In this document: piece by piece, positions 955 to 64,000 of the stretch
How the letters are laid out: each line of letters starts with the position of its first letter
Position numbering within the stretch: the first letter of the stretch is position 1
Sequence record: MW349128.1
Reading direction: 5' to 3' (one strand)
Length of the DNA stretch: 64,000 nt
DNA from: Staphylococcus phage Machias
The notes under the pieces: generated by a model
Databases searched by the model: none
Told to the model about the DNA's origin: nothing
Seen by the model: the letters and a program-made list of their open reading frames with translations, nothing else
Translations under genes and position numbers: made by a program

Positions 955-1578
955 ATGCCAAAAGAAATAGATTTAACTTCAGAAAAATTTAAAGATTATT
1001 CATATAACGAATTAAACTCAAGAGGTTCACAATTAAAAGATGGTAATTTAGATTTAGAATTTGAATTAGCTTCAGTTAAAAAATACTTTTTAGATAATGT
1101 AAATAAAAATGTAAGATACTTTAAAACTTATAAAGAAAAAATTAACTATTTAGTAGATAATGATTATATTGATGGAGATATGATCAAAAATTATGATTTT
1201 GAATTTATTAAAGGATTAATGAAAGAATTAATGGCTTATAAACATAGATTCACTCGTTTATTAGGAGCTAAAAAATTCTATGAACAGTATGCAATGAAAG
1301 ATGATGCAGGAGAAATCTTATTAGAACTATATGAAGATAGAATTTTATTTGTAGCTTTATATTTAGCTGACGGTGATGAAGAATTAGCTAGAAATATTGC
1401 TAATGAAATTATTACAGGAACTTTCCAACCTGCCACACCAACATTCCTTAATGCAGGTAGAGTACGTTCTGGAGAATTAGTAAGTTGTTTCTTATTAACT
1501 ATGGAAGACTCTTTATCATCTATTTATAGAAATATCTCTAATGTAGCTCAATTAAGTAAACGTGGTGGAGGCGTAGGT
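955..1578 (+). CDS. nrdE: Ribonucleotide reductase class Ib large subunit NrdE, exon 1 (ends after ...SKRGGGVG)
   Basis: ATP-cone-less class Ib N-terminus; conserved GGGVG block at ~1567-1578; the reading frame then runs into intron sequence (KLYTFH stop); exon ends on a U. Confidence 0.8.
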
Positions 1579-2560
1579 AAACTATATACGTTTCATTAAG
1601 ATTTTTGAAAATTATAAATCTTAAATGATACTAATGCCTACGAAAAATCGTGTGAACTCATACTAAAGGGGTGTCTAATTATAATAATTAGGCTAACGGT
1701 CATAGCAGTTAATTATGCTGGTAAGAGAGACTAAGTCCTATTAAATTGATAGGATAGAGTTAATACCGTGCCAAGCTTTATACTATTCATAGCTTCTAGA
1801 TGGGAGCTTGATAAAATGAAAGAAAATGAAATATTTAAACAATTAGAAGAATTTCCAGACTATGATTTTGGTAGTCATGGAACTATAATATCTTATAAGA
1901 CTAAAAATCCTAGAAAAATTATACCCAAGATTGATAAGAATGGTTATCATGAAGTAGGATTGAGAGATTATACAAATAAAAGAAAATACAGAAAAGCACA
2001 TAGACTTATTCTATTAGCACATAATTATATAGAAAATTCAGAAGATATGCAAGTAAATCATATAAATGGTAAACCAGATGACAATCGTTTATCTAATTTA
2101 GAATGGTGTACATCTAAAGAAAATATGAAACATGCATATAATATTCTTAGTAAAAATAAAGATAATAATAAATTTAAAATAGAAGTTTTGATTAAAGATA
2201 AAAATGATAATATTTTTAATTTTGAATCTATGAGTAAAGCTTCAGTATTTATCAAAAGTTCTGTTGGTGGTCTAAGATCTTTCTGGGTTAGAAGAAAAAG
2301 ACCTACAAATGAATTTATTAAATATAAAGATTATGATATAATGTTTAAGCCTAGTGAAAACTGGATTAAAGAATATGGAAAAGAAATTGTTTAAAGTTAT
2401 GAATAGTAAATTGAAGGTGTAGAGACTATCGAAAAGAAAGTTTAATTACTTTACTTAGTAGAGTAGGTCAGAGATTAGTACTGATCGAAGTGCATGGCAT
2501 ATTATTTTAAATAATATGAAGATATAGTCCACTCATTATAGAAATATAGTGGTTAAAGTG
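1579..2560 (+). mobile_element. Group I intron nrdE-I1 (~980 nt) carrying an HNH homing endonuclease ORF
   Basis: Interrupts NrdE between GGGVG and ISLSNLRA; R-like GTAGAGACTATCG (~2420) and S-like AAGATATAGTCC (~2518-2529) elements, P7 pairing GACTA/TAGTC; 3' end ...aaagtg| ~31 nt after S; internal HNH ORF. Confidence 0.7.
1768..2394 (+). CDS. Intron-encoded HNH (HNH_3 / AP2-like) homing endonuclease; true start may be M at ~1813
   Basis: HGTIISYKT...NGYHEVGL...KAHRLILLAHNYIENSEDMQVNHINGKPDDNRLSNLEWCTSKEN is a classic HNH motif of I-HmuI/I-TwoI-type phage endonucleases; lies inside the nrdE intron. Confidence 0.7.
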   Translation: MPSFILFIASRWELDKMKENEIFKQLEEFPDYDFGSHGTIISYKTKNPRKIIPKIDKNGYHEVGLRDYTNKRKYRKAHRLILLAHNYIENSEDMQVNHINGKPDDNRLSNLEWCTSKENMKHAYNILSKNKDNNKFKIEVLIKDKNDNIFNFESMSKASVFIKSSVGGLRSFWVRRKRPTNEFIKYKDYDIMFKPSENWIKEYGKEIV

Positions 2561-2683
2561 ATTAGTTTAAGTAATTTACGTGCTGACAATGATCCAATTA
2601 AAGGTGTTGAAGGTGCAGCTTCAGGTGTAGTTCCAGTTATGAAAGTATTTGAAGATACTTTATCATATGTAAATCAACTGGGT
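2561..2683 (+). CDS. nrdE: NrdE exon 2 (41 codons: ISLSNLRADNDPIKGVEGAASGVVPVMKVFEDTLSYVNQLG)
   Basis: Not in the ORF track; translation aligns with the universally conserved RNR large-subunit segment (NLSRLRA...GVVPFMKVFNDTARYVDQGG in E. coli NrdA); bridges exon 1 to exon 3 in frame. Confidence 0.75.
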
Positions 2684-2845
2684 TAATTTTAATGGCTCAG
2701 TATAAATATTGTTAATTGCTGGAAAAGTTTACAAGCTTAATCAGCATCAATCAAGATGATTGTTCAACGACTAAATATAATAATACTTATTAATAGTATA
2801 AGATATAGTCTAATCTATATGAATTTCATATAGTTAATATAAATG
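2684..2845 (+). mobile_element. Mini group I intron nrdE-I2 (~162 nt, ORF-less)
   Basis: P ATTAATTGCTGG (2712-2723), Q TTAATCAGCATC (2746-2757), R GTTCAACGACTAAAT (2762-2776), S AAGATATAGTCTAAT (2800-2814); ends ...ataaatG| at 2845; splices VNQLG to QRNGAGALYLNIFH. Confidence 0.7.
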
Positions 2846-13236: not shown

Positions 13237-13809
13237 TTAAGTAAACATATTCAATCCCGGATTATTTGGATGGGGATTATATTGGGATTTATATCCATAA
13301 ATTGCATCATCAATTTGTTGTTGAAAAACTCTTCCTTTAATTACTTGCATACTTCTAGAATATTGAGTTTTCATATTAATTTGAGCTTTATCAATAATGG
13401 ATAGTTGATCTCTTCTAATTCCTGCTAAGCAATCAATATAAGATAATAATCCTGTATTAAATTTCATTCTTTGGAATGATTTAGAAGCCATTAAGTTTGG
13501 ATACATATCTCTAATATTAATAGATACAGTAATTTCTCTTGGGAAACCATCTGCAGTCCATGTACCTTCTTCACCACGAACTATATTCATTGAAGTTATT
13601 ATACCTGTATTACATTCAAATCTACCAGGACAATTAGCTCTAATAATAAACGGTTGCTTATAAGAGAATATTGAATCTTGTAAAGGTAAAGCTAATACTA
13701 ATAATGAAAGAAATGGTAAATATACATTGTCAAATATAGATTGTGGATCTCCATAAGCACTATAGAATTTAAATTCTAGATTATAAGTACGGTCAAAAGT
13801 TGAATTCAT
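13237..13809 (-). CDS. hypothetical protein (190 aa) immediately downstream of the IStron-like element
   Basis: ORF with a weak RBS (caggtttggATG). Confidence 0.45.
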   Translation of the reverse strand: MNSTFDRTYNLEFKFYSAYGDPQSIFDNVYLPFLSLLVLALPLQDSIFSYKQPFIIRANCPGRFECNTGIITSMNIVRGEEGTWTADGFPREITVSINIRDMYPNLMASKSFQRMKFNTGLLSYIDCLAGIRRDQLSIIDKAQINMKTQYSRSMQVIKGRVFQQQIDDAIYGYKSQYNPHPNNPGLNMFT

Positions 13810-13814
13810 CCAAA

Positions 13815-14005
13815 CCTGGTTTGTTAAATCTTGATTTTATATATTAAATATAAAGGCAAGACCTTGTATAAAATACACTTGGCTCAGTGACTAACGTATA
13901 AGGGAACCCTTATACTCCTTGTAAAGCTAATCGGACATTAGCTTATCACCCGTTTATCGTCTCCCGCTACCCGCAGGCGACTCTCATATCTTTTATTTTG
14001 TGAGA
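13815..14005 (-). ncRNA. Candidate TnpB guide (omega/right-end) RNA scaffold
   Basis: Only markedly GC-rich, stem-rich stretch in the region; stems read on the minus strand (as transcribed): AAGCTAAT/ATTAGCTT, GTATAAGGG/CCCTTATAC; lies directly 3' of the tnpB stop, where IS605 omega-RNAs map. Confidence 0.4.
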
Positions 14006-15199
14006 TTAAACATATTTTAAATCTAGAATATTTTTAGCTGCATTTAAATCTCTATCAAGAACTACATCACAATTAGGACAATCATGAGTATCATCACCTA
14101 AAACTAATTTCTCTTTATTAGTTCTAACATAACCACATGATGAACATGTCTGTGTAGTCTTTTTCTTAGTAATAATATTTAATTCATTATCATAAAAATT
14201 AGATTTAAATTTTAATTTTTCTAAAAAATCATACTTACCAAATCTTCTATTAGAACGTCTAAGATTTCTGAATCTATCAGATATTTTATGTGGATATGGT
14301 TCTATATTGATTACTTTATAATTTTTAACTAACCAATTAGTAATTTTGTCCCTATGATCTTCCAACATATCATATTCTCTATTATAAGACTTTCTTAATT
14401 GTTTTAAAAGTTTGTAATATGATTTTGAATAATATTTTTTTCTATCTAATTTAGATTTAATTTTTTCAGTTTTTCTTTCTTGTTTCCATAGAATATTCGG
14501 TATTTTAAATTCAAATACTTGACCGTTTGAGTCTACAGCAGCTAAAGGAGTTTTTATCCCCATATCAATACCAATTGAATAATTATTTTCTCTCTGTTTC
14601 TTATAATTGATTATCTCATAAGTTATAGAGATGTAGAATTTTTCATTCTTTCTGCTTATGGTGTAATATTTAAAATTAATATCGTTAGAGTTAATAAATT
14701 TTAAAGATTCCTTAGTTTTAATAACAAAAGGTTTAATTCCTTTCATTGCAGAAACTCTTATCCATTTTTTAGATAAAAATTTTACAGGTAAACTTAGTTT
14801 ATCTTTAACTATAAATCTAAATGAATCGTTAGAATATTTTTTCTTTTTAAATTTAGGTTTAAATTTATCACTATCTATATAATTTTTAGATTTTCTAGCT
14901 TTACTCTGCATTTCATAGTATTTAGAAAAAGTCTGATTTAGATCTTTTAAAGCTTCTTGTCTAACCATACTATTAACTTCATAAAGATAAGGATAATTTC
15001 CAGAATTTTGAATTTCGTTGTTTAATTTCTTTTGAAAATCAAATCCACTAAATTTCTTATCATCATCAATATTCTGATAATCTTCTAAAGCCATATTCCA
15101 TACTTTTCTTCTTACACCAAAGCATTTATTGAAATAATTCTTTTGGTCTTGATTTGGGTATATTCTAGTTTTGAAAGATTTAACTATTCCTTTTTTCAT
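14006..15199 (-). CDS. tnpB: TnpB (IS200/IS605-family OrfB) RNA-guided-nuclease-like protein, 397 aa
   Basis: RuvC-I GIDMGIKTPLAAV, zinc finger CSSCGY...CPNCD, RuvC-III DRDLNAAKNI; strong RBS aggaggtg; no tnpA present. Confidence 0.85.
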   Translation of the reverse strand: MKKGIVKSFKTRIYPNQDQKNYFNKCFGVRRKVWNMALEDYQNIDDDKKFSGFDFQKKLNNEIQNSGNYPYLYEVNSMVRQEALKDLNQTFSKYYEMQSKARKSKNYIDSDKFKPKFKKKKYSNDSFRFIVKDKLSLPVKFLSKKWIRVSAMKGIKPFVIKTKESLKFINSNDINFKYYTISRKNEKFYISITYEIINYKKQRENNYSIGIDMGIKTPLAAVDSNGQVFEFKIPNILWKQERKTEKIKSKLDRKKYYSKSYYKLLKQLRKSYNREYDMLEDHRDKITNWLVKNYKVINIEPYPHKISDRFRNLRRSNRRFGKYDFLEKLKFKSNFYDNELNIITKKKTTQTCSSCGYVRTNKEKLVLGDDTHDCPNCDVVLDRDLNAAKNILDLKYV

Positions 15200-15249
15200 T
15201 GTTTAATTTCACCTCCTAATCATATTATATAAATATGTTAGGAAATTCC

Positions 15250-15300
15250 TGATATGAATTTTTTATCAGTATTTTATACAATCTCTAAATTAGTAATTTA
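15250..15300 (-). repeat. IS605-type left-end subterminal hairpins
   Basis: Perfect palindromes CTGATAtgaattttttATCAG and CTCTAAATTagtAATTTAGAG just 5' of tnpB. Confidence 0.4.
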
Positions 15301-15304
15301 GAGC

Positions 15305-15410
15305 ACAGACTATATCATACTCATTGATATGAGTGAATATATTTAGTCGTTGGACAAGTCTTATTGACTTGATGCTGATTGAGATAATAATCTATTCCAG
15401 CAATTAATAT
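15305..15410 (-). mobile_element. Group I intron catalytic core (mini-intron family copy) on the minus strand
   Basis: Reverse complement contains ATTAATTGCTGG, AATCAGCATC, GTCCAACGACTAAAT, ATGATATAGTCT in the same order and spacing as the other mini-introns. Confidence 0.65.
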
Positions 15411-15442
15411 TCTTTGCTAATTAAAATTACTTTTAATAGGGA

Positions 15443-16354
15443 CTATTTGTGTGAATAATCCGGATAATACATTGATGCACCATCTAAATGTTCCATAAAG
15501 TTACCTACAATACCACCAATAACTGGCATATTTGCTACCATATCATTAATACTATCTTTAATAGTTCTAGTAATTTTACCTAAAATAGAAGCTCCACCAA
15601 TACGAGCCATTTCTTTTTGTTCTCGTATTTCTTGGTTTTTATTATTAACTTGAGAAGCAATATCAGATTGATTATATTCATGCATTGCAGATTCTGATAT
15701 ACTAGTTGATTTATCTGCATAGTAAGCTAGTCCATAGTTTTTATCATCTTGTAGAGATCCACCTAGATCAAATGATCCTTTTAAACCCATTGATGCATGA
15801 ACTTGAGAAGCCATAGTTTGTACGTATTTATAATATTCAGCCATTTTAGGTTCAAAGCTTATCATACGACCATCTTTAGTATTACCGATACCTACTAAAG
15901 ATAAACCAGAGTTTACTAATCTATCCATTCCTTCACCAAAACTCCATAATTTACCTTCTCCTGGTTTACCAAATAATTTACCATTTAATTTAGGCATACC
16001 CGGCATTATAAATACTAAAGGTAAATCTAATTCAAATGTTCTTTTATATATTCTTCTATTAGGATCATCTAAACTAGAATAGTACATAGGCATTCCAAAT
16101 ACATCTAGTTCACCTTTAACATTTCTTAATTGTTTTTTATCTTTAGCATTTTTATCTGTTAAATATTCAGTTGCTTGTCTTTGATTACCCAAAGCATCCA
16201 TAAAAGCACCAGTATCTTTTTGAGTAGGATCATATTCATGATAGTCATAATCACCTTTTTTCTCATCAGCTTGAGGTATTAAAGCCATATCATCATCTGC
16301 CACTTTTAAAGGTTCTTGTTCCTTAGACTCTTTTTTATCTTTTTCTTCAGCCAA
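15443..16354 (-). CDS. hypothetical protein (303 aa; TTG start) of the leftward virion module
   Basis: ORF from the track; its stop lies ~9 nt before the predicted 5' end of the IStron-like intron. Confidence 0.5.
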   Translation of the reverse strand: MAEEKDKKESKEQEPLKVADDDMALIPQADEKKGDYDYHEYDPTQKDTGAFMDALGNQRQATEYLTDKNAKDKKQLRNVKGELDVFGMPMYYSSLDDPNRRIYKRTFELDLPLVFIMPGMPKLNGKLFGKPGEGKLWSFGEGMDRLVNSGLSLVGIGNTKDGRMISFEPKMAEYYKYVQTMASQVHASMGLKGSFDLGGSLQDDKNYGLAYYADKSTSISESAMHEYNQSDIASQVNNKNQEIREQKEMARIGGASILGKITRTIKDSINDMVANMPVIGGIVGNFMEHLDGASMYYPDYSHK

Positions 16355-28274: not shown

Positions 28275-28937
28275 TTATTTATTTTTAACTACTTCTTGAA
28301 TTTTATCTAATACTAAATCTACATCTTTTTCTAAAGATAATTTTTCAAATAACATAGTTAATAAGAAATCTATTGTTTTATGGTTAATAAAGAAAATAGA
28401 ACCAATAATATGATTCATTTCTTTTTTACTGACTTTTTTATTTTCTTGATGATATTTTCTATTAGGTGTTAATCTTCTTATATGACCACCATTATTAACC
28501 ACTGTTTTACTTACAGAATCAATTATTGTTTGATAGAATTTATCATCACTAACTTTTTCACCTGTATTTAATACAAAATCTTTACTGAAATTTAAATCAT
28601 TTAATTCTATTACATATTTGTATTCTAAATTATACTTCTCAATCAAAGTAGAATTTATAGAAACAAAATAAAGAATTATATCTAATAATTCAAGAGAAGC
28701 TAATGAAGTTAATTCATAGCGTTCCTTAATATTATCAGTCTTTAATAAATTATACATTTCAATATTAAACTCATAAGATTCTTCAATTATTTGAGGTAAA
28801 AATCTATCAATCATTTGATGTAATTCTTCGTCACCAAAATCATAACGTTTAATTACATCAATATGATTTAAATATAGATTCTCTATATTAATATTAATAC
28901 TTCTTTTCTTATTGTAAAAATGCTTCATTAATATCAT
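28275..28937 (-). CDS. hypothetical protein (220 aa) upstream of the tape-measure-like genes (possible tail assembly chaperone position)
   Basis: ORF; function assigned by synteny only. Confidence 0.45.
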   Translation of the reverse strand: MILMKHFYNKKRSININIENLYLNHIDVIKRYDFGDEELHQMIDRFLPQIIEESYEFNIEMYNLLKTDNIKERYELTSLASLELLDIILYFVSINSTLIEKYNLEYKYVIELNDLNFSKDFVLNTGEKVSDDKFYQTIIDSVSKTVVNNGGHIRRLTPNRKYHQENKKVSKKEMNHIIGSIFFINHKTIDFLLTMLFEKLSLEKDVDLVLDKIQEVVKNK

Positions 28938-28949
28938 CCAATCTATTTA

Positions 28950-29867
28950 TTATTGAAATTTATTTTTAAACTCTTTTTCATACTCTTCATTAACTTTATT
29001 TAAATCGATTTCTTCACCATCTACTGTTCTAAATTTATCAGCAGATAATTTCTCACCTTTTAATACTTCTTTATCATCAGATTCAACTTTAGCTTGCATA
29101 ACTATATGTGGAGTTACATATGAAGGTGATTTAACTGTATCTAATTTAGGTGCATGAATACGAGCTTTTTGTAATTTACGTGTAAAGTTGATGTTATTAA
29201 TTGAAATTGTTTTACCCTCTTTTAAAGCTGATGTACGTAATGAATCTGCTAATGTTACAATATCTTTTAATTCTTTTTTACTGTATGCTTCATTTCCTGA
29301 TTCATCTACAAGATTCATTAATAAATCATTTAATAATTCATCTTTAGTGTATGATTTATCACTGTATTTCTTTTTAGTAGTTTTCTTAACGTCTTTTTTA
29401 ACTCGATTAACTTTAATTTTTTCCACTTTATTATCATCCTTTTTACTTGTTTTAGTTTTTGTACTAGATTTCTTTTTAACTGGATTCTTAACTTCTTCTA
29501 CTTTTTCTTCTTTAACTTCTTTTTCTTCTTTAATTTCTTTTTCTTTATCAGGATTAATTCCTGAAGCTGTAATAGTTACATTATCATATTCTGTATCTGT
29601 TGGAATATCCTTTAATTTGATAATTACATCTTTTAATTCATCAGAAGCAATATTAATTTCATTCTTATTGTAATTAATTTTGATTACATTATCATCTTCT
29701 GGGATTAATACTAAATTCTTTCTATCATATTTTTCTGGAATTGTTTCAATTTCAAAAGTTAATACGTCACCTTTATAACCTTGTTCTTCACTTACTTTTA
29801 ATTCTGCTGATTCTAATACACTTAAATCCTTAGTTTCATTAGTTACTTTTCTTCTTGTAATTGCCAT
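28950..29867 (-). CDS. hypothetical Lys-rich protein (305 aa), first gene of the leftward module
   Basis: ORF with RBS ggagaga; central KKxSxKxK low-complexity region. Confidence 0.5.
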   Translation of the reverse strand: MAITRRKVTNETKDLSVLESAELKVSEEQGYKGDVLTFEIETIPEKYDRKNLVLIPEDDNVIKINYNKNEINIASDELKDVIIKLKDIPTDTEYDNVTITASGINPDKEKEIKEEKEVKEEKVEEVKNPVKKKSSTKTKTSKKDDNKVEKIKVNRVKKDVKKTTKKKYSDKSYTKDELLNDLLMNLVDESGNEAYSKKELKDIVTLADSLRTSALKEGKTISINNINFTRKLQKARIHAPKLDTVKSPSYVTPHIVMQAKVESDDKEVLKGEKLSADKFRTVDGEEIDLNKVNEEYEKEFKNKFQ

Positions 29868-45430: not shown

Positions 45431-45591
45431 AAAGTAATTTAAGTTGATTCACATTATTAATTGCTGAGAAAGTATTTATTAAATTAATCAGCATCAATCA
45501 ATATGATTGTTCAACGACTAAATATAATGATACTCATAAAGAGTATATGATATAGTCTATTTTATATTTAAAAATATAATATTAAAGACAG
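45431..45591 (+). mobile_element. Mini group I intron polB-IA (3' end uncertain: 45591, 45603 or 45612)
   Basis: 5' aaagtaatttaagttgat..., P TTAATTGCTGAG, Q TTAATCAGCATC, R GTTCAACGACTAAAT, S ATGATATAGTCTAT; the in-frame continuation has no stops. Confidence 0.6.
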
Positions 45592-45840
45592 ATAGTAACT
45601 TCGTACATTTAGATCCATTATATCAAAAAATGAAAGAAAAGAAACCTGAAGATTTCCCTATTGCAGAAAATGGTTTAGAAGATAAATTAGAACAACGTGT
45701 AGGTAATATATCTATTATTAACTATCAAATTACTAAATTGCTAGAATTATCTTATCATAGATTCTGTAAAGATTTAGGATTAGAAGATGAACATTTAGGT
45801 GTTATATCTATGAAAAATGAGTATGTAAATGCTCCAGTAT
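45592..45840 (+). CDS. DNA polymerase B exon 2 (~83 aa)
   Basis: Open frame ...LDPLYQKMKEKKPEDF...NEYVNAPV joining exon 1 and exon 3 in frame. Confidence 0.55.
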
Positions 45841-45996
45841 ACAGTAATGTGTATTAGTAAATATTATTAATTGCTGAGACAAAATAAAATTAATCAGCAT
45901 CTTCAAATAATGAAGTTCAACGACTAAATATAATAATTCTTAATAATAAAGAATATGATATAGTCTAGTCTTATATTTAAAATATAAGTATAAACG
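45841..45996 (+). mobile_element. Mini group I intron polB-IB
   Basis: 5' acagtaatgtgtatt..., full P/Q/R/S set; 3' end ...ataaacG|; the E2(t)+tt+E3 junction reads ...NAPV-F-LLDKQ in frame. Confidence 0.65.
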
Positions 45997-50979: not shown

Positions 50980-51140
50980 GTGATTTAAGTTGATAAACAT
51001 TGTTAATTGCTGAAATACTATTAATAAAGTTAATCAGCATCAATTAAATATAATTGTTCAACGACTAAATGCAATGATACTATTTAATAGTATATAATAT
51101 AGTCTAATTTATATAATACTTATATAAATATAATAAATGC
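50980..51140 (+). mobile_element. Mini group I intron rpoC'-IC (3' end uncertain, 51139-51156)
   Basis: 5' aaagtgatttaagttgat..., P/Q/R/S set, S at ~51100-51108, ...ataaatG at 51139. Confidence 0.6.
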
Positions 51141-51341: not shown

Positions 51342-51491
51342 AAAATTTTATATTACCATCATTAAATAATATTAATTGCTGGAAAATCTAATAAGATAAT
51401 CAGCATCAACTTAATAAAAGTTGTTCAACGACTAAATATATTACTAAAGAAGATATAGTCTAATTATATGTAAATACATGTATATAAAATG
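51342..51491 (+). mobile_element. Mini group I intron rpoC'-ID, splitting the DFDG|D catalytic motif
   Basis: P ATTAATTGCTGG 51372, Q, R GTTCAACGACTAAAT, S AAGATATAGTCTAAT ~51450-51464; ends ...aaaatG| 51491; next exon begins DMISIRSLWSVEA (compare [14 protein letters not shown]). Confidence 0.65.
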
Positions 51492-51617: not shown

Positions 51618-51759
51618 AAGTTTGTATGCTCTCAATAAATTTCATTAATTGCTGGAAAAACAAAATTAATCAGCATCAACTTAATAAAAGTTGTTCAACG
51701 ACTAAATATGAAAATGATTTAAATATCATAAGATATAGTCTAATTATCATAAATATATG
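51618..51759 (+). mobile_element. Mini group I intron rpoC'-IE
   Basis: 5' aagtttgtatgctc..., P AATTGCTGG 51647-51655, Q, R, S ~51730-51744, ...aaatatatG|. Confidence 0.55.
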
Positions 51760-51792
51760 GTACAAGCTTTATATTCTTTAACTAAAGAATAA
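51760..51792 (+). CDS. beta-prime-like terminal mini-exon (VQALYSLTKE-stop); boundary tentative
   Basis: In frame with exon 3; resembles ...AERLYRSGLA; followed by a terminator. Confidence 0.35.
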   Translation, partial: VQALYSLTKE

Positions 51793-53735: not shown

Positions 53736-54407
53736 ATGGAAGGTTATGATTTTGATTTATATATAACAAATAGGGATTTGAAAGATAATCATTTTATGAA
53801 AATAAATAAAGATAGGTATAATAATGATAGAGACTATATTGAAAGAGTAAATACTATCAATATGATAAAATTATTAACTCATGTCTCTTATCCTGATTAT
53901 GAAAATATTATATCATTTAATGTTGACTGTAAACTGAAATTAAGAGGTTTTAATGATTATAAAGATATTAAGTTATCTTATTATCAAGAAGTAGAATCAA
54001 AATCAACTATTATTGCCGGAATATCATTTGTAAAAACTGAATTAAATTTAATAAGTAAAGAGAAAGATAATAGATATCTAACAGATGAATTATTGTATGA
54101 GTATGATATGATGAAAATAAATACAAGTATAAATAATAAACTTAATACAATTAAATTAACTAAAAATGAAGCCACTGCTTTGAATAGTATTAGTCAGAGA
54201 AGTCCTAAATTTCATTTATCACTTGATAAGTTTAGAAGAGAATTCTTAAAGATGATAACTGAATTAAATAAGTATGAAGATATACAGTTTTTAATTGATG
54301 GAACGTATTATAGTTTAGAAGATATCAATTTATACAATAAAGATTTATTTAGAACTGCTACTGATAAGGAATTCAAGAATTATTTAGTTAAAGAAGGATT
54401 TAGATAA
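53736..54407 (+). CDS. C-tail family paralog 4 (223 aa; ...TDKEFKNYLVKEGFR)
   Basis: RBS taaggaggaa. Confidence 0.6.
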   Translation: MEGYDFDLYITNRDLKDNHFMKINKDRYNNDRDYIERVNTINMIKLLTHVSYPDYENIISFNVDCKLKLRGFNDYKDIKLSYYQEVESKSTIIAGISFVKTELNLISKEKDNRYLTDELLYEYDMMKINTSINNKLNTIKLTKNEATALNSISQRSPKFHLSLDKFRREFLKMITELNKYEDIQFLIDGTYYSLEDINLYNKDLFRTATDKEFKNYLVKEGFR

Positions 54408-54410
54408 AAA

Positions 54411-54427
54411 AGTGTATTAAATATATA
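54411..54427 (+). promoter_or_regulatory. Promoter-like motif AAATATATATTATAAAA (copy 4), internal to the array
   Basis: Exact 17-mer. Confidence 0.45.
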
Positions 54428-54502
54428 TTATAAAAATGAGATAATGAATCTAACAGAGTTCATTATCTCTAATAATATCTTAAATAGAGGAGATGAAGTT
54501 AA

Positions 54503-55145
54503 TATGGATAATAATGAATATATAAATAATCATGAATTCTATAAAGTTGATAGTAGAGGACAAATAATAGTAACTAATAAAGATGTTACTAAAGATGAAT
54601 TAAATGTTAATCTATTCAAAGAATTATTTAATTTTAATAATGTTAAGAAAAAAATAGATGAAATTGGTTTATTTTCATTAAAAACCAATAGTATTTTGAT
54701 AAGGGACAAAAATACTTATTACAGAACTAAGAATTCTTATATAGATATAACAGACATGTGCAATAATAATTATTTTGAATTATATTTTGTATTTTCATTA
54801 TTAGATAAAAATGAAAATGGATGCAAGAATATAGGACCTTTTAAAAGTTCAATTAGCAGTCAAGTATTTTCATATACAGCTAAAATTCAAATTAAAAATA
54901 GAGACAATTTGGAACATGAATTAATTTCAAATATAATTGATCTCTTTAGTAGTAAAAAAGAAACAAATTTAATAATATATACAGTTGATTCAGTAGAGGA
55001 TGATATTGATTTTATGACAAGTCGAGAATTTAAGAAAGATTTAATTTTAGAAGAATATACACTCGATGAAATATACAAGGTCTTAGAAAAATTAGAAAGT
55101 GAAAAAGAAATTAAACAATACTTAGTTAAAGAAAATTTTAAATAG
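54503..55145 (+). CDS. C-tail family paralog 5 (start re-set to ATG 54503; ...SEKEIKQYLVKENFK)
   Basis: RBS agaggagatg upstream of 54503; the track start at 54444 would overlap the promoter motif. Confidence 0.55.
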
Positions 55146-61796: not shown

Positions 61797-64000
61797 GAAA
61801 ATTAAACGATTAAAGTTAGTTAACTTTATAGGTATATATGCTGGGACAGGTCTTAAAGAAATTGAGATAGACTTCAGTAAGAGTAAAAATAATATGATAA
61901 TGCTACTTGGAAATAACGGATCTAGTAAGACTGTGATACTTTCACAACTAAGTCCGTATAGAACTTCTAATGATAATCGTAAGACAATTACGATTGAAGG
62001 AGAAAAAGGAGTTAAAGAAATCGATTATATTAAAGGTAATGATGTATATAAAATTAAACATCATTATGGTAAAAATAGTTCTCAGAATAAATCATTTATT
62101 AAAAAGAATGATGAAGAATTAAATGAAAATGGTGGCATTAAACTGTTTAATGAAATAGTTGATAATGAATTAGACGTATCACAAGAATATTTCACAGTAG
62201 GTAGATTAGGAGATAATGTATCTAACTTTATAGACTATACTACAGGTGATCGTAAAACATATATTAACAAATTTGTACCTAATATTGATAAGTATTTAGA
62301 AGCTTATAAAGTTGCTAATGAAAAGAAAAAGCTTATTGATAAAGATCTTAAGTCATTAAGATTTGATTTAGATAAATATAAAGAATTTGATGAAATTAAG
62401 AAAGAAAAAGAAGTACTAGAAAATTTAATTAATGAAATTCAAGATGAATTAGATAATGCTAATAAAGAAAAGACTTCTAATGAGACCAAATTAAATTCTA
62501 TTATGGAAGAAAAGTATAATGAAATTCATCCAACTCAATTAAAAGAAAATTTAATTAATGAACTTCATGAACTTGAAAATGAATTAGAAAAAGAAAGAAA
62601 GTTAAAAGAATCTAATGAAAATCTAAATAATTATACATTAGAATCTGCTAATGAAAAGAAAGAAAAAGTATCTTCTATACTTAATGAAGTTCATACAAAT
62701 TTAACATCAACTAAAAAGGATAAAGAATCTAATCAAGATAAATTAGATGATTTAATTAGTAGAAAATCTAAAATTGAATCTAGAATGAATGCTATTAAGT
62801 TCAATGAAGATTATGATGCTTCACAGGAAATTGATGAAATTCTTCAATCATATAAAGATGATCTAACTGATTTAGATAATGATATAGATGTTGCTAGAGG
62901 ATCCTATTTCAATAACTTTAATATTAAAATTAAAGATAATATTGAAGTTAATACACTTAATTTATATATAGATAACCTATTAAATAAAGTTAATAAATTC
63001 AAGAGTCTAGTTAATGATAATAAATTTAAATATAATGATATTCATGGAGATTTTGAAACTGAAATTAAATCTAATAAAGAAAAAATTTCTATGAACCTAA
63101 ATGAAGCTAATGAACTTAATACAAGTCTTAATCAAATTAAAGGTAAATCAGATTTACTTAAAATATTAGAACAAAAAGATCATGAACATTATAAAGAATG
63201 TGTATTTGTACCTTTAGTAGTTGATTTTAAAGATAATGAATATGATTCAATTGATAAATTGGAAACTAGAGTTAATGAACTTTATGAAGAAAATAATCAG
63301 TTAGAAAATGATAATGAACTTCTTTCTAATCATATCGATATATTAAATCAATTTAATTATATTAAAGAAGATGTCGATTCATTAAACGAATATTTAGGTT
63401 TTGATATTATTACTATGGATAATATTAAAGAGATATTTATTAATAATAGCTCATTTACTAATGAAGAAAATAGCTTGAAATCATTATCAGATAATGTTAA
63501 TGAAATTAGAACATCTGAACGCAATAGAGATGAATTATCTAAAGAATTGGAAAGAAAAAGATATGCGTTTAAAGAAGATCATTCTAATCAAAAATTAATG
63601 AATCAATATAACGAAGATAAAGCTGAATTAGAAAAGCAGATTGAAGAAGTTAAAAGTAATAAAGATAATATCTTAGAGAATCTTAATGAACTTAATGCAA
63701 AGAAAGATAAAGGACAAAATACTTTAGACATTATTAATGAATTTATTAATTTAACAGAAAAGTCTGATGAAATTAAATCTAACATTAAAGATAAACAATC
63801 TAATATTGATGAAGTTGATAAAGATTTAAATAATTTAAGTAGATTATATGAACTTAATCAACAATCAGATAGTAAGATTAATTCTATTAAAGATAATTTA
63901 ACTATGAAGAAAAATGATTTAGAATCTACTAAAGAAAAATACTTTACAGTAAATACGATTATTAATAAGATTGATGATATTGAGAAAGTATTATGGAAAT
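61797..64000 (+). CDS. SbcC/Rad50-like (T4 gp46-like) recombination/repair ATPase, 3'-truncated by the window end
   Basis: N-terminal Walker A LLGNNGSSKTVILSQL followed by >600 aa of uninterrupted coiled-coil-type sequence; RBS aactaggagatg; no stop before 64000. Confidence 0.65.

What the first reader, a model, noticed from the sequence alone, without database searches (positions are those of the whole stretch)
13810..15442. IStron-like chimera: mini group I intron core fused to a TnpB (IS200/605) gene and a structured right-end RNA, inside a phage virion operon
On the minus strand, the region between genes 15443-16354 and 13237-13809 begins with the same 5' sequence (aaagtaatttt...) and the same P/Q/R/S core (15305-15410) as the ORF-less mini-introns in nrdE, polB and the beta-prime gene. 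Instead of ending ~30 nt after S, it continues into IS605-type subterminal palindromes (15250-15300), a complete tnpB with intact RuvC-I/II/III and Zn-finger motifs (14006-15199), and a GC-rich stem-loop region (13815-14005). This matches the architecture described for IStrons (group I intron 5' part plus IS200/605 3' part, where splicing and the TnpB guide RNA compete for the same transcript). Here the element is phage-borne and built on a locally proliferating mini-intron family. The upstream ORF's stop codon lies ~9 nt before the predicted 5' splice site, so the element appears to sit in an intercistronic part of the transcript rather than inside a codon. That is not certain.
Basis: partly seen in the sequence, partly recalled or inferred. 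Interest (0 to 1): 0.85.

Follow-up and report, generated by a model that had tools for sequence, protein, structure and literature searches.

The report
Phage IStron splitting a virion gene
A 1.6-kb selfish element made of a very small self-splicing intron plus an RNA-guided nuclease gene (TnpB) and its guide RNA sits inside a structural gene of a giant Staphylococcus phage. It is a new, phage-adapted variant of the known "IStron" elements and could be used to study RNA-guided intron spread between viruses.

Summary
The window is Staphylococcus jumbo phage Machias. The element is exactly 1642 nt (13816-15457, minus strand) and is not intercistronic. It splits one virion-protein gene between codons D299 and V300, and the 97%-identical phage PB50 has that gene uninterrupted. 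The boundaries obey group I rules: U·G at the 5' splice site in P1, and a terminal G. The 5' 175 nt are the best-scoring member of a family of 7 (window) and 34 (phage LY01) mini group I cores. Their P3-P9 fold is strongly supported by covariation. tnpB is intact (D-E-D, zinc finger, dN/dS 0.13-0.23). Its 3' UTR is a conserved, covarying scaffold that ends at the 3' splice site, as an ωRNA should. A 13-bp long-range stem closes the tnpB module. A candidate pseudoknot and P9.0 compete for the same nucleotide just before the 3' splice site. Intron-less relatives carry a significant cluster of synonymous changes exactly at the predicted TAM and protospacer. Two further copies in LY01 follow the same CGGAT target. 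Distant relatives split phage DnaB, DNA polymerase and prohead protease genes. Verdict: a tnpA-less, IS200/605-type IStron with a miniaturised ribozyme, a new variant of a known kind. Splicing and cleavage are inferred, not shown.

The parts
15458..16354 (-). Exon 1 of the virion structural protein gene (codons 1-299, ends ...CCG GAT)
   Evidence: Matches phrog_20401 positions 24-296. Collinear with PB50 'virion protein' up to D299.
13816..15457 (-). The whole element (intron = IStron), 1642 nt: UAUUCACAC...AACAAACCAG
   Evidence: Exact insertion relative to PB50, with no boundary ambiguity. U precedes the 5' end and G is the last nucleotide. Removing it gives a 491-aa ORF of the same length as in PB50.
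15458..15462 (-). CGGAT: conserved 5' target motif, the predicted TAM. GGAU is also the exon strand of P1.
   Evidence: All three full copies follow CGGAT. Only Machias has CCG-GAT at this site; seven other phages have CCC or CCT.
15440..15461 (-). P1: GGAU|UAUU paired with AAUAGUCC, with U15458·G15443 at the 5' splice site. The loop CAAAU could pair with exon 2 GUUUG (P10).
   Evidence: Unconstrained MFE fold of the ORF-deleted construct. The intron half of P1 is compensated in the LY01 copies (UGUU/AACA). P10 is read from the sequence only and is not conserved in LY01.
15417..15439 (-).
   Evidence: compensated in LY01: ACUUUUAUA/UAUAAAAGU.
15283..15412 (-). Ribozyme core. P3 15412-15406 with 15343-15342 and 15339-15335. 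P4 15402-15397 with 15378-15373. P5 15393-15390 with 15385-15382. P6 15371-15355. P7 15348-15344 with 15312-15308. P8 15334-15319. J7/9 15307-15304. P9 15303-15283.
   Evidence: Covariance model R1, top hit at 135 bits. Across 42 copies 93.8% of cells pair against 31-44% in slid controls, and 27 of 41 pairs change on both sides.
15269..15281 (-). 5' arm of the long-range stem (P9.1-like) that closes the tnpB/ωRNA module: UUGUAUAAAAUAC
   Evidence: 13 bp with 13864-13876. A stem at the same position with a different sequence occurs in 10 of 11 related loci.
15249..15269 (-). Hairpin CUGAUA-N9-UAUCAG, function unknown. Not supported as an IS605 end hairpin.
   Evidence: Sequence. The LY01 copies have an A×A mismatch with no compensation.
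15212..15217 (-). Shine-Dalgarno AGGAGG for tnpB
   Evidence: Read from the sequence. Conserved in the LY01 copies and in distant relatives.
14006..15199 (-). tnpB (397 aa), RNA-guided nuclease of the IS200/IS605 type
   Evidence: dN/dS is 0.13-0.23 between copies. 100% identical to 'transposase [Staphylococcus phage Machias]'.
13877..13985 (-). Predicted ωRNA scaffold. SL1 13981-13959 (loop GGGUA 13972-13968), GAUAAACG, a junction stem, SL2 13944-13924, SL3 13915-13896, and GUUAGUCACUGAGCCAAGU.
   Evidence: Conserved in relatives whose TnpB is 39-48% identical. 12 of 25 pairs are compensated. 96.9% of cells pair against 25-47% in slid controls. The 5' end of the RNA is not known.
13864..13876 (-). 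3' arm of the long-range stem: GUAUUUUAUACAA
13827..13863 (-). Terminal hairpin (P9.2-like, the last stem-loop of the scaffold)
   Evidence: Kept in the tnpB-less derivative in LY01.
13816..13826 (-). 3' tail UAACAAACCAG with terminal G13816. C13818-A13817 pair with J7/9 (P9.0). A13820-C13818 pair with the SL1 loop (candidate pseudoknot).
   Evidence: The tail AACAAGACAG is invariant in relatives.
13796..13815 (-). Predicted guide segment of the ωRNA, which is the first ~20 nt of exon 2 (GUUUGGAUGAAUUCAACUUU)
   Evidence: Inferred from TnpB/IStron biology. Supported by 7 clustered synonymous differences at +12..+27 in the intron-less alleles of PB50 and AH12.
13237..13815 (-). Exon 2 of the virion protein gene (from codon V300)
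   Evidence: Matches phrog_20401 positions 300-451. Collinear with PB50.

Best explanation
The element is a tnpA-less IStron of the IS200/IS605 (group A) type, with a miniaturised group I ribozyme. It is inserted in frame in a virion-protein gene of Staphylococcus jumbo phage Machias.

Proposed working:
1. The gene is transcribed through the element.
2. The 5' ~175 nt (P1-P9) fold into a group I core. A 13-bp long-range stem loops out tnpB and most of the guide-RNA scaffold. This brings the terminal hairpin and the tail UAACAAACCAG to the core.
3. Guanosine attacks after U15458. The exons are then ligated after G13816, restoring the 491-aa ORF.
4. Unspliced or excised RNA is the mRNA for TnpB.
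5. In unspliced RNA, the last ~170-190 nt of the element plus the first ~16-20 nt of exon 2 form the ωRNA.
6. TnpB-ωRNA should cut intron-less alleles that read CGGAT followed by GTTTGGATGAATTC... in a co-infecting phage. Recombinational repair then copies the element in (homing).
7. Splicing and guide formation exclude each other. Splicing cuts the scaffold from the guide, and C13818 is needed both for P9.0 (splicing) and for a pseudoknot with the SL1 loop (ωRNA).

Shown here: boundaries, folds supported by covariation, an intact and constrained tnpB, multiple copies with one target motif, and a target-site footprint in relatives. Inferred: catalysis, TAM identity, cleavage and homing.
For: Boundaries:
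- The insertion is exactly 1642 nt relative to PB50, between D299 and V300, with U at -1 and G at the 3' end.
- The flanking ORFs are halves of one protein family.
- No terminator lies inside the element.

Ribozyme:
- An unconstrained fold gives P1 with U·G at the splice site, and P2, P4-P9.
- The P3-P9 structure with the P3/P7 pseudoknot holds over 42 copies: 93.8% paired, 27 of 41 pairs changed on both sides, covariation score 0.486 against at most 0.09.
- P9.0 matches the distal 3' site in the window: J7/9 UG with CA before the terminal G. In the same copy it does not match the proximal pseudo-site ...UACUG.
- P9.0 changes in step in relatives (CG with CG-G) and in mini-introns.

TnpB:
- Searches identify it; dN/dS is 0.13-0.23.

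3' RNA:
- The scaffold is conserved down to 39% TnpB identity and abuts the 3' splice site.
- 12 of 25 pairs are compensated; 96.9% of cells pair.
- The SL1 loop GUC pairs with tail GAC in relatives. In the window this becomes GGU with ACC in the same register. This is analogous to PK-1/PK-2 of CboIStron.

Mobility:
- Two more copies in other LY01 genes also follow CGGAT, with unrelated 3' flanks and no duplication.
- The element is absent from PB50 and AH12.
- LY01 holds a tnpB-less derivative that keeps the core, long-range stem, terminal hairpin and tail.
- Eight of 39 Machias-PB50 differences fall at -3 and +12..+27. All are synonymous (p about 1e-4 after correction).

Deep conservation:
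- Relatives split phage prohead protease, DnaB and DNA polymerase genes in the same layout.
- The internal guide sequence (IGS, the P1 strand that pairs with the exon) and the 5' target change together: GUCC with GGAU, GUCA with UGAU, GCCA with UGGU.
Against: - There is no experimental evidence of splicing, of an ωRNA or of cleavage.
- Rfam finds no group I intron or any other family, even at E<10 and even in relatives with full-size introns.
- No tnpA lies in the element, the window or LY01 (a weak test). How the element reached three different CGGAT sites is therefore unexplained.
- The core lacks P7.1/P7.2 and the extended P9 domain said to be common to all described IStrons.
- CGGAT is unlike the T-rich targets of group A IStrons.
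- The pseudoknot rests on one lineage's compensatory change. P10 is not conserved among copies.
- The phage DNA is presumed to be uracil-substituted. Whether TnpB cuts such DNA is unknown.
Confidence: 0.8

Rival explanations
1. Nested IS rather than a unitary IStron. A tnpB-only IS200/605 element (about 15266-13816) sits at the 3' end of a mini-intron that once ended at ...AUUGUAUAAAAUAC(A/U)G. The transposon's left end would lie inside the intron. The TAM would be the old intron 3' end (..ACAG), and TnpB would defend the IS against excision rather than drive homing into intron-less genes. The composite would move only as an intron.
For: The LY01 copies read ...AAAAUACAG right after the 5' arm of the long-range stem. 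This has the same CAG ending as the true 3' end and is compatible with P9.0. ORF-less mini-introns end about 10-14 nt after P9 with a similar A/U-rich tail. No tnpA or proven left-end hairpin defines the transposon's left end.
Against: - The window copy has ...UACUG at that place, so the motif is not conserved.
- Relatives at 39-48% TnpB identity have no such motif, yet keep the same layout. Their 5' exon ends match known IS605 targets (TTGAT/ATGAT) and change together with the IGS.
- The footprint in PB50 and AH12 lies at the exon junction of an intron-less allele. That site is a target only in the unitary model.
- In described IStrons the left and right ends coincide with the splice sites.
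Confidence: 0.1
2. A spliced but otherwise inert relic. The intron still splices, so the gene works, but TnpB and its RNA no longer cut DNA, or they have been put to another use such as regulating the virion gene. The element would be inherited only vertically.
For: There is no tnpA. The target is unusual. The genome is presumed to be uracil-DNA. Only one copy lies in this window.
Against: The catalytic D-E-D and zinc-finger residues are intact. dN/dS is 0.13-0.23 across diverged copies. The scaffold shows compensatory changes. Near-identical genomes differ by presence or absence of the element with exact boundaries. Synonymous changes cluster at the predicted TAM and protospacer. Purifying selection alone would also fit a domesticated role.
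Confidence: 0.08
3. No splicing at all. A dead intron remnant plus an unrelated IS insertion has permanently split the gene into two separately translated proteins.
For: The upstream ORF has an in-frame stop 15 nt into the insert. The downstream ORF has an ATG at 13809, with some purines upstream. Rfam does not recognise the intron.
Against: The boundaries are exactly those of a group I intron, and the exons are collinear with the intact gene to the nucleotide. The core is the best-scoring member of a covarying family. The intron, TnpB and scaffold combination is conserved in distant relatives, so it is not a chance juxtaposition. The AR9 orthologue is annotated as a spliced three-exon gene.
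Confidence: 0.02

Closest known systems
Group A IStrons (CdISt1 / CdiIStron of Clostridioides difficile and relatives; Tourasse 2014, PMC4227781; Zedaveinyte 2023, 10.1101/2023.11.20.567912)
   Same: A group I intron at the 5' end and an IS200/605-type ORF B (TnpB) downstream on the same strand. The ωRNA lies in the tnpB 3' UTR and ends at the 3' splice site. The element is inserted 3' of a pentanucleotide ending in T, with no target duplication, and its 3' end is ..CAG. The ORF region is enclosed by an inverted repeat. The splice sites are the element's ends. tnpA-less and ORF-less derivatives exist.
   Different: - The target is CGGAT instead of TTGAT/ATTAT/TTTAT.
- The ribozyme is about 175 nt to the end of P9 and lacks P7.1/P7.2 and P9.1/P9.2 upstream of the ORF, whereas all described IStron introns are IA2.
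- The host is a lytic jumbo phage and the gene is a virion structural gene.
- TnpB is under 30% identical to any other TnpB in the phage collection searched. It was not compared with CdISt1 ORF B itself.
- There is no Rfam group I match.
CboIStron (IS607-type, group B; includes copies in C. botulinum phages c-st and D-1873)
   Same: The logic of competition between splicing and guide formation. A pseudoknot partner at the scaffold's 3' end overlaps nucleotides needed at the 3' splice site. Here the SL1 loop and P9.0 share C13818. IStrons carried by phages are already known.
   Different: Group B elements use a serine TnpA, insert after GG and end in CGG, with G as the last exon nucleotide. The window element has U at -1 and CAG at its end. 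Its TnpB scores higher on the IS200 model than on the IS607 model (166 against 76 bits). The C. botulinum phages are large plasmid-like prophages, not lytic jumbo phages (own knowledge).
Homing-endonuclease group I introns of lytic phages (T4 td/I-TevI, Twort, SPO1, AR9 introns)
   Same: [quoted passage not shown] The R and S elements resemble the T4 td type (GUUCAACGACUA / GAUAUAGUCUG; recalled from memory). Spread is expected by cutting the intron-less allele of a co-infecting phage, with co-conversion of flanking exon sequence.
   Different: The nuclease is RNA-guided (TnpB plus ωRNA made from the intron-exon 2 junction), not a protein-only HNH, GIY-YIG or LAGLIDADG enzyme. Target specificity is therefore carried by the transcript itself.
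ORF-less BcISt1 variants of emetic Bacillus cereus
   Same: Derivatives that lost the ORFs but kept the inverted-repeat stem and the ends. The LY01 element at 60190-59891 is of this kind.
   Different: BcISt1 is IS607-type and bacterial. The many 174-190-nt mini-introns in the Staphylococcus phages lack the long-range stem and terminal hairpin altogether.

Membership tests
Group I intron | P3-P9 core with the P3/P7 pseudoknot and conserved P/Q/R/S elements | tested here: met
   CM R1 and pair counts on 42 copies: 93.8% paired, 27 of 41 pairs with changes on both sides, slid controls 31-44%. P7 is invariant and so uninformative.
Group I intron | 5' splice site after U, paired to G in P1; last intron nucleotide G | tested here: met
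   Boundaries come from the intron-less PB50 allele. U15458·G15443 appears in the MFE fold. The same holds for a 174-nt mini-intron that is absent from PB50.
Group I intron | Match to the curated Rfam group I model | tested here: inconclusive
   No hit at gathering score or at E<10. Relatives with full-size introns are missed too, so the negative says little.
Group I intron | Self-splicing activity | not testable with these tools
   Needs RT-PCR, RNA-seq or in vitro splicing.
Subgroup IA2 (the class of all described IStron introns) | P7.1 and P7.2 between P3' and P8, and an extended P9 domain (P9.0, P9.1, P9.2) | tested here: not met
   Only one hairpin (P8) lies between P3' and P7'. P9 is a single hairpin upstream of the ORF. 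The long-range stem and terminal hairpin may stand for P9.1/P9.2. Relatives L010, L014 and L015 have at least one additional hairpin between P3' and P7' and a longer P5 region.
TnpB / OMEGA nuclease | RuvC D-E-D triad, zinc finger, family-model score above cutoff | tested here: met
TnpB / OMEGA nuclease | Structured guide-RNA scaffold at the 3' end of or after tnpB, ending at the element's right end, with the guide read from flanking DNA | tested here: met
   A conserved, covarying scaffold abuts the 3' boundary. The flanks differ between copies. That the RNA is made and bound is not tested. No Rfam family matches it.
TnpB / OMEGA nuclease | TAM-dependent RNA-guided DNA cleavage | not testable with these tools
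   Indirect only: CGGAT lies 5' of all three copies, and there is a synonymous-change cluster at TAM and protospacer in intron-less alleles.
IStron, group A (IS200/IS605 type) | Group I intron and IS ORF B in one element whose ends are the splice sites, so that removal restores the host ORF | tested here: met
IStron, group A (IS200/IS605 type) | Insertion 3' of a conserved pentanucleotide ending in T, no target duplication, variable 3' flank, 3' end ..CAG | tested here: met
   CGGAT three times; ends CCAG or ACAG; unrelated 3' flanks. The motif itself differs from TTGAT/ATTAT/TTTAT and the end differs from TCAG.
IStron, group A (IS200/IS605 type) | ORF region enclosed by inverted repeats that form a stem | tested here: met
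   A 13-bp stem that changes in step across 10 of 11 loci.
IStron, group A (IS200/IS605 type) | TnpA (Y1 HUH transposase) or its remnant, and end hairpins recognised by it | tested here: not met
   There is no ORF A in the element. tblastn with a recalled IS608 TnpA finds nothing in the window or LY01 (weak). No end hairpin could be shown.
IStron, group B (IS607 type) | Insertion after GG, 3' end CGG, G as last exon nucleotide, serine TnpA | tested here: not met
   The last exon nucleotide is U and the end is CAG. The IS200_TnpB model scores above the IS607_TnpB model. Relatives L012 and L018 do look like group B.

The most novel reading that the evidence does not exclude
In lytic, presumably uracil-DNA jumbo phages, a lineage of IStrons may have dropped transposition altogether. 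It would use TnpB-ωRNA purely as an RNA-guided homing endonuclease for a group I intron, competing between co-infecting phages. The recoded TAM and protospacer in PB50 and AH12 would then be the trace of that conflict, either escape or a co-conversion tract centred on the TnpB cut site. The same lineage has shrunk the ribozyme to about 175 nt. It is kin to, and possibly the source of, the 174-190-nt ORF-less introns that litter these genomes (7 in this window, 34 in LY01). Those would be among the smallest natural group I introns.
Probability: 0.4. Interest if true: 0.8.

Novelty: new variant of a known kind. Interest (0 to 1): 0.65.

Why it matters
IStrons and the conflict between splicing and guide-RNA formation are known from Clostridia, where the elements are studied as transposons in bacterial chromosomes and plasmids. 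A 2026 review (PMC13565253) raises homing of a tnpA-less IStron only as a possibility.

This element offers a natural, cultivable test case:
- It sits in a lytic phage, in a gene encoding a virion structural protein that all eight related phages examined retain.
- Isogenic-like intron-less relatives exist (PB50, AH12), and they already differ at the predicted TAM and protospacer.

It would let one ask three things:
- whether RNA-guided nucleases drive intron spread and marker exclusion between phages;
- whether TnpB works on uracil-containing DNA;
- how small a group I ribozyme can be while still carrying a 1.4-kb cargo.

The compact ribozyme, TnpB and ωRNA set is also a short, self-contained module of possible use in engineering. 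For annotation, the two 'hypothetical' ORFs flanking the 'transposase' in Machias should be joined into one virion-protein CDS.

Tried and rejected
- Rfam scans of the whole window at gathering score, of 13600-15700 at E<10, and of three related loci gave nothing relevant. This neither supports nor refutes the intron.
- A protein-seeded search of IMG/VR found no relative.
- The ωRNA signature pattern found nothing in 185,579 bacterial and archaeal genomes. It gave one chance hit in IMG/VR (L016) and one true fragment in JGI metagenomes (L017). The family is rare and so far seen only in phages or phage-like contigs.
- The two other Machias paralogues (P0003, P0005) could not be fetched.
- The c-st phage TnpB locus taken for comparison (CST045) shows no intron core upstream, so it was no use as a reference IStron.
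- tblastn with an IS608 TnpA sequence recalled from memory found nothing. This is a weak negative.
- The intercistronic reading was rejected because.
- The 'IS605 subterminal palindromes' reading was rejected.
- The proximal G at ...UACUG (15266) was considered as the 3' splice site. It was rejected because it would not restore the ORF and does not fit P9.0 in the window copy, although it does fit in the LY01 copies.
- An automated P9.0 test was noisy because the J7/9-P9 boundary is ambiguous. With fixed positions, 15 of 23 were complementary, and 1 of 5000 permutations reached that.
- Pfam gave no domains for the genes that host the two LY01 copies.
Full report
**Identity of the window.** The tnpB product is 100% identical to 'transposase [Staphylococcus phage Machias]' on a 274,478-bp contig. 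The DNA around it is 97% identical to Staphylococcus jumbo phages vB_StaM_PB50 and AH12, and about 84% identical to MarsHill, Madawaska, S6 and LY01. These are AR9/PBS1-like phages. The paper that describes Machias reports many intron-split genes and presumes uracil-DNA, but it does not mention a transposase, IS605 or an IStron. Full-text searches found no paper on an IStron in these phages.

**Checking the observation.** tnpB at 14006-15199(-) is complete. It matches Pfam HTH_OrfB_IS605, OrfB_IS605 and Cas12f1-like_TNB and NCBIfam guided_TnpB at 179 bits against a cutoff of 100. The IS200-type model scores above the IS607-type model. Alignment to ISDra2 TnpB structures places D (IGIDMG), E (NIEPY), D (DRDLNAAKNI) and CxxC...CxxC at the catalytic and zinc positions. 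The 5' part of the element matches six other places in the window at 73-83% identity. The 3' UTR is G+C-richer than its surroundings and folds better than shuffles.

**True boundaries and context.** The flanking ORFs match consecutive parts of one PHROG family of virion structural proteins, at positions 24-296 and 300-451 of 473. PB50 has this gene uninterrupted. Pairwise alignment gives window 16500-15458 = PB50 501-1544 and window 13815-13000 = PB50 1545-2360. The insertion is therefore exactly 15457-13816, 1642 nt, with no ambiguity:

...CCGGAT | TATTCACAC...AACAAACCAG | GTTTGG....

It lies between codons D299 and V300, and removing it gives a 491-aa ORF of the same length as in PB50. The 'stop codon' of the upstream ORF is inside the intron. 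The element is therefore intragenic and in frame, and the intercistronic reading is wrong. No intrinsic terminator lies inside it. The AR9 orthologue is annotated as a three-piece spliced CDS, so this gene is a recurrent intron target.

**The ribozyme.** An unconstrained MFE fold of the element with tnpB removed gives the following:
- P1 (GGAU|UAUU with AAUAGUCC), with U15458·G15443 at the splice site;
- P2, P4, P5, P6, P7, P8 and P9;
- a 12-13-bp long-range stem;
- a terminal hairpin.

I built a covariance model of P3-P9. It finds 7 copies in the window and 34 in LY01, and the element's core is the top hit at 135 bits. On these 42 sequences, with P7 added as a pseudoknot, 93.8% of cells form pairs, against 31-44% when partners are slid. 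Of 41 pairs, 27 change on both sides, and the covariation score is 0.486 against at most 0.09. One ORF-less copy (45823-45996, 174 nt) is absent from PB50 and has exact group I boundaries: GAGU|...G|, with P1 formed by GAGU and GCUC. This shows the family is made of real, mobile introns. Between P3' and P7' there is only one hairpin, so the P7.1/P7.2 pair said to characterise all described IStron introns is missing. Rfam detects nothing, but it also misses the larger introns of relatives.

**The 3' RNA.** I fetched relatives whose TnpB is 39-48% identical, from metagenomic phage-like contigs. All have a group I intron upstream of tnpB. It is full-size, with R = GGUUCAACGACUA and S = GAUAUAGUC. 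All also have a 3' UTR with the same blocks:
- SL1: GUCGCC..GGGAGAC;
- GAUAAACG;
- two stem-loops;
- GUUAGUCACAGCG..AAGU;
- an inverted-repeat arm;
- a terminal hairpin;
- the tail AACAAGACAG, directly at the junction with the downstream exon.

RNAalifold predicts 25 pairs in the scaffold, 12 of them with compensatory changes. In my count 96.9% of cells pair, against 25-47% in slid controls. This is what a TnpB ωRNA scaffold should look like, and it sits where the scaffold lies in described IStrons.

A stem between the sequence just after P9 and the distal 3' UTR is present, with different sequences, in 10 of 11 loci. It corresponds to the inverted repeat that encloses the ORFs in known IStrons. 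A tnpB-less derivative in LY01 keeps exactly the core, this stem, the terminal hairpin and the tail. That suggests these are the parts needed for splicing.

**Competition at the 3' splice site.** In all relatives the SL1 loop reads nGUCn and the tail reads aGACag. In the window the loop is GGGUA and the tail is AACCAG. In the same register, G-C/U-A/C-G becomes G-C/G-C/U-A. This is one event, but it involves two double compensations. It points to a pseudoknot between 13971-13969 and 13820-13818.

The two nucleotides before the terminal G (C13818, A13817) are complementary to the last two of J7/9 (U15305, G15304), forming P9.0. That relation also changes in step:
- UG with CA-G in the IStrons;
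- CG with CG-G in L012 and L018;
- AU with AU-G, GU with AC-G and UU with AA-G in mini-introns.

With fixed positions, 15 of 23 are complementary, and 1 of 5000 permutations reaches that. C13818 is needed by both pairings, so they exclude each other. This mirrors PK-2 of the C. botulinum IStron, which overlaps nucleotides required for splicing.

**Mobility and target.** LY01 carries two more full copies (84% nt identity, TnpB about 81% aa identity) in other genes. All three copies follow CGGAT. Their 3' flanks are unrelated and there is no duplication. They end in CCAG or ACAG. This is the group A (IS200/605) pattern with a different pentanucleotide. In relatives the last exon nucleotides and the intron's IGS (internal guide sequence, the P1 strand that pairs with the exon) change together: GGAU with GUCC, UGAU with GUCA (after TTGAT or ATGAT), and UGGU with GCCA. 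dN/dS between the tnpB copies is 0.13-0.23. PB50 and AH12 have no tnpB of this clade. No Y1 transposase was found (weak), so how new CGGAT sites are reached remains open. The options are TnpA in trans, reverse splicing, or illegitimate homing.

**A footprint at the target.** Eight related phages encode the identical peptide LDGASMYYPD(V/I)WMNSTFDRTY at this site. Only Machias has Pro = CCG, which creates CGGAT; the others have CCC or CCT. Machias and PB50 differ at 39 of 1476 positions in the spliced gene. Eight of these lie at -3 and +12..+27 relative to the insertion site, where 0.8 is expected (Poisson 2e-6, about 1e-4 after correction). All are synonymous, and AH12 shows the same pattern. 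In this patch Machias resembles the otherwise much more distant LY01, S6 and MarsHill. The patch coincides with the predicted TAM and protospacer. TnpB is known to cut at the TAM-distal end of its target (own knowledge). The pattern therefore fits either a co-conversion tract left when the element homed in, or escape recoding in PB50 and AH12. Either way it is indirect evidence that this junction has been a nuclease target. It favours the unitary IStron model over a nested-IS model.

**Comparison with what is known.** The element works like, and meets most defining features of, a group A IStron that has lost tnpA. It differs in five ways:
- the miniaturised, non-IA2-looking core;
- the CGGAT target;
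- its home in lytic jumbo phages and in a virion gene;
- its membership of a small, so far phage-only clade that also splits DnaB, DNA polymerase and prohead protease genes;
- the absence of its 3' RNA signature from 185,579 bacterial and archaeal genomes.

A 2026 review raises homing by tnpA-less IStrons only as a possibility. I therefore rate it a new variant of a known kind.

**Limits.** Splicing, the ωRNA, the TAM and cleavage are all inferred. The pseudoknot rests on a single lineage. P10 is plausible here (GUUUG with CAAAU) but is not conserved in LY01. The 5' end of the ωRNA is unknown. The direction of descent between the IStron core and the ORF-less mini-introns is unresolved.

Noticed in passing
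window 45823-45996 (+): An ORF-less group I intron of only 174 nt in the family B DNA polymerase gene, absent from PB50, with exact boundaries (..GAGT | ATGTAAATGCTCC...TATAAACG | TTTT; P1 GAGU/GCUC). As far as I recall, the smallest self-splicing group I intron on record is the 205-nt Azoarcus intron, so this would be smaller. That figure is unverified.
   Followed up: partly
window 2702-2838, 45447-45584, 45857-45993, 50993-51134, 51362-51487, 51635-51767 (+); LY01 (L003-L008), 34 places: A proliferating family of mini group I introns sharing one core: nrdE, DNA polymerase (two copies), and three in a row in a gene that PB50 annotates as viral RNA polymerase beta-prime. They have different P1 guide sequences and targets (CGAU, GAGU, GGAU...).
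   Followed up: partly
window 2784-2798 versus PB50 record 28770-29309: The nrdE mini-intron has 13 nt in its P8 loop in the window, where PB50 has a 563-nt insertion carrying an HNH endonuclease ORF. The same intron thus exists with and without a homing-endonuclease gene.
   Followed up: partly
window 1572-2565 (+): A 994-nt insertion with an HNH_3 ORF (1768-2394) is present in the window and absent from PB50. It is probably a second, endonuclease-bearing intron or a free-standing HEG in or next to nrdE.
   Followed up: no
LY01 record 60190-59891 (-) (L004): A tnpB-less derivative of the same IStron. It keeps the core with J7/9 UGUG, P9, the long-range stem (with two G·U pairs), a remnant of the scaffold, the terminal hairpin and the tail UUUAACAAGACAG. 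It is inserted after TGGGT and has a matching internal guide sequence, GCCC.
   Followed up: partly
LY01 copies, just after the 5' arm of the long-range stem (window equivalent 15266-15270): Both LY01 copies read ...AAAAUACAG at this place. That fits P9.0 and could act as an alternative or ancestral 3' splice site, separating the ribozyme from the tnpB-ωRNA part. The window copy reads ...UACUG.
   Followed up: no
L012 and L018 (metagenomic relatives): Two relatives whose TnpB is 43% identical sit after TGGG|T and end in ..GACGG, like group B (IS607-type) IStrons. Their J7/9 (..CG) changes in step with the CG before the terminal G. L018 has U-A instead of U·G at the 5' splice site.
   Followed up: no
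LY01 record 62380-63477, 183049-184152, 230326-231429, 53860-55020: Four further tnpB genes of an unrelated clade (27-30% identity). One lies about 860 nt downstream of a mini-intron core (64256-64336), with a 113-aa ORF between them. This may be a second kind of intron-TnpB association.
   Followed up: no
L025 (Bacillus phage AR9, AR9_g205): The AR9 orthologue of the split virion gene is annotated as a join of three pieces, with two small ORFs inside the gaps. The gene is therefore interrupted independently in a distant relative.
   Followed up: no
window 15462-15467 with 13806-13811 (-): In the fold of the tnpB-deleted construct, exon 1 UUAUCC pairs with exon 2 GGAUGA. This would hold the two exons together. 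It may be chance.
   Followed up: no
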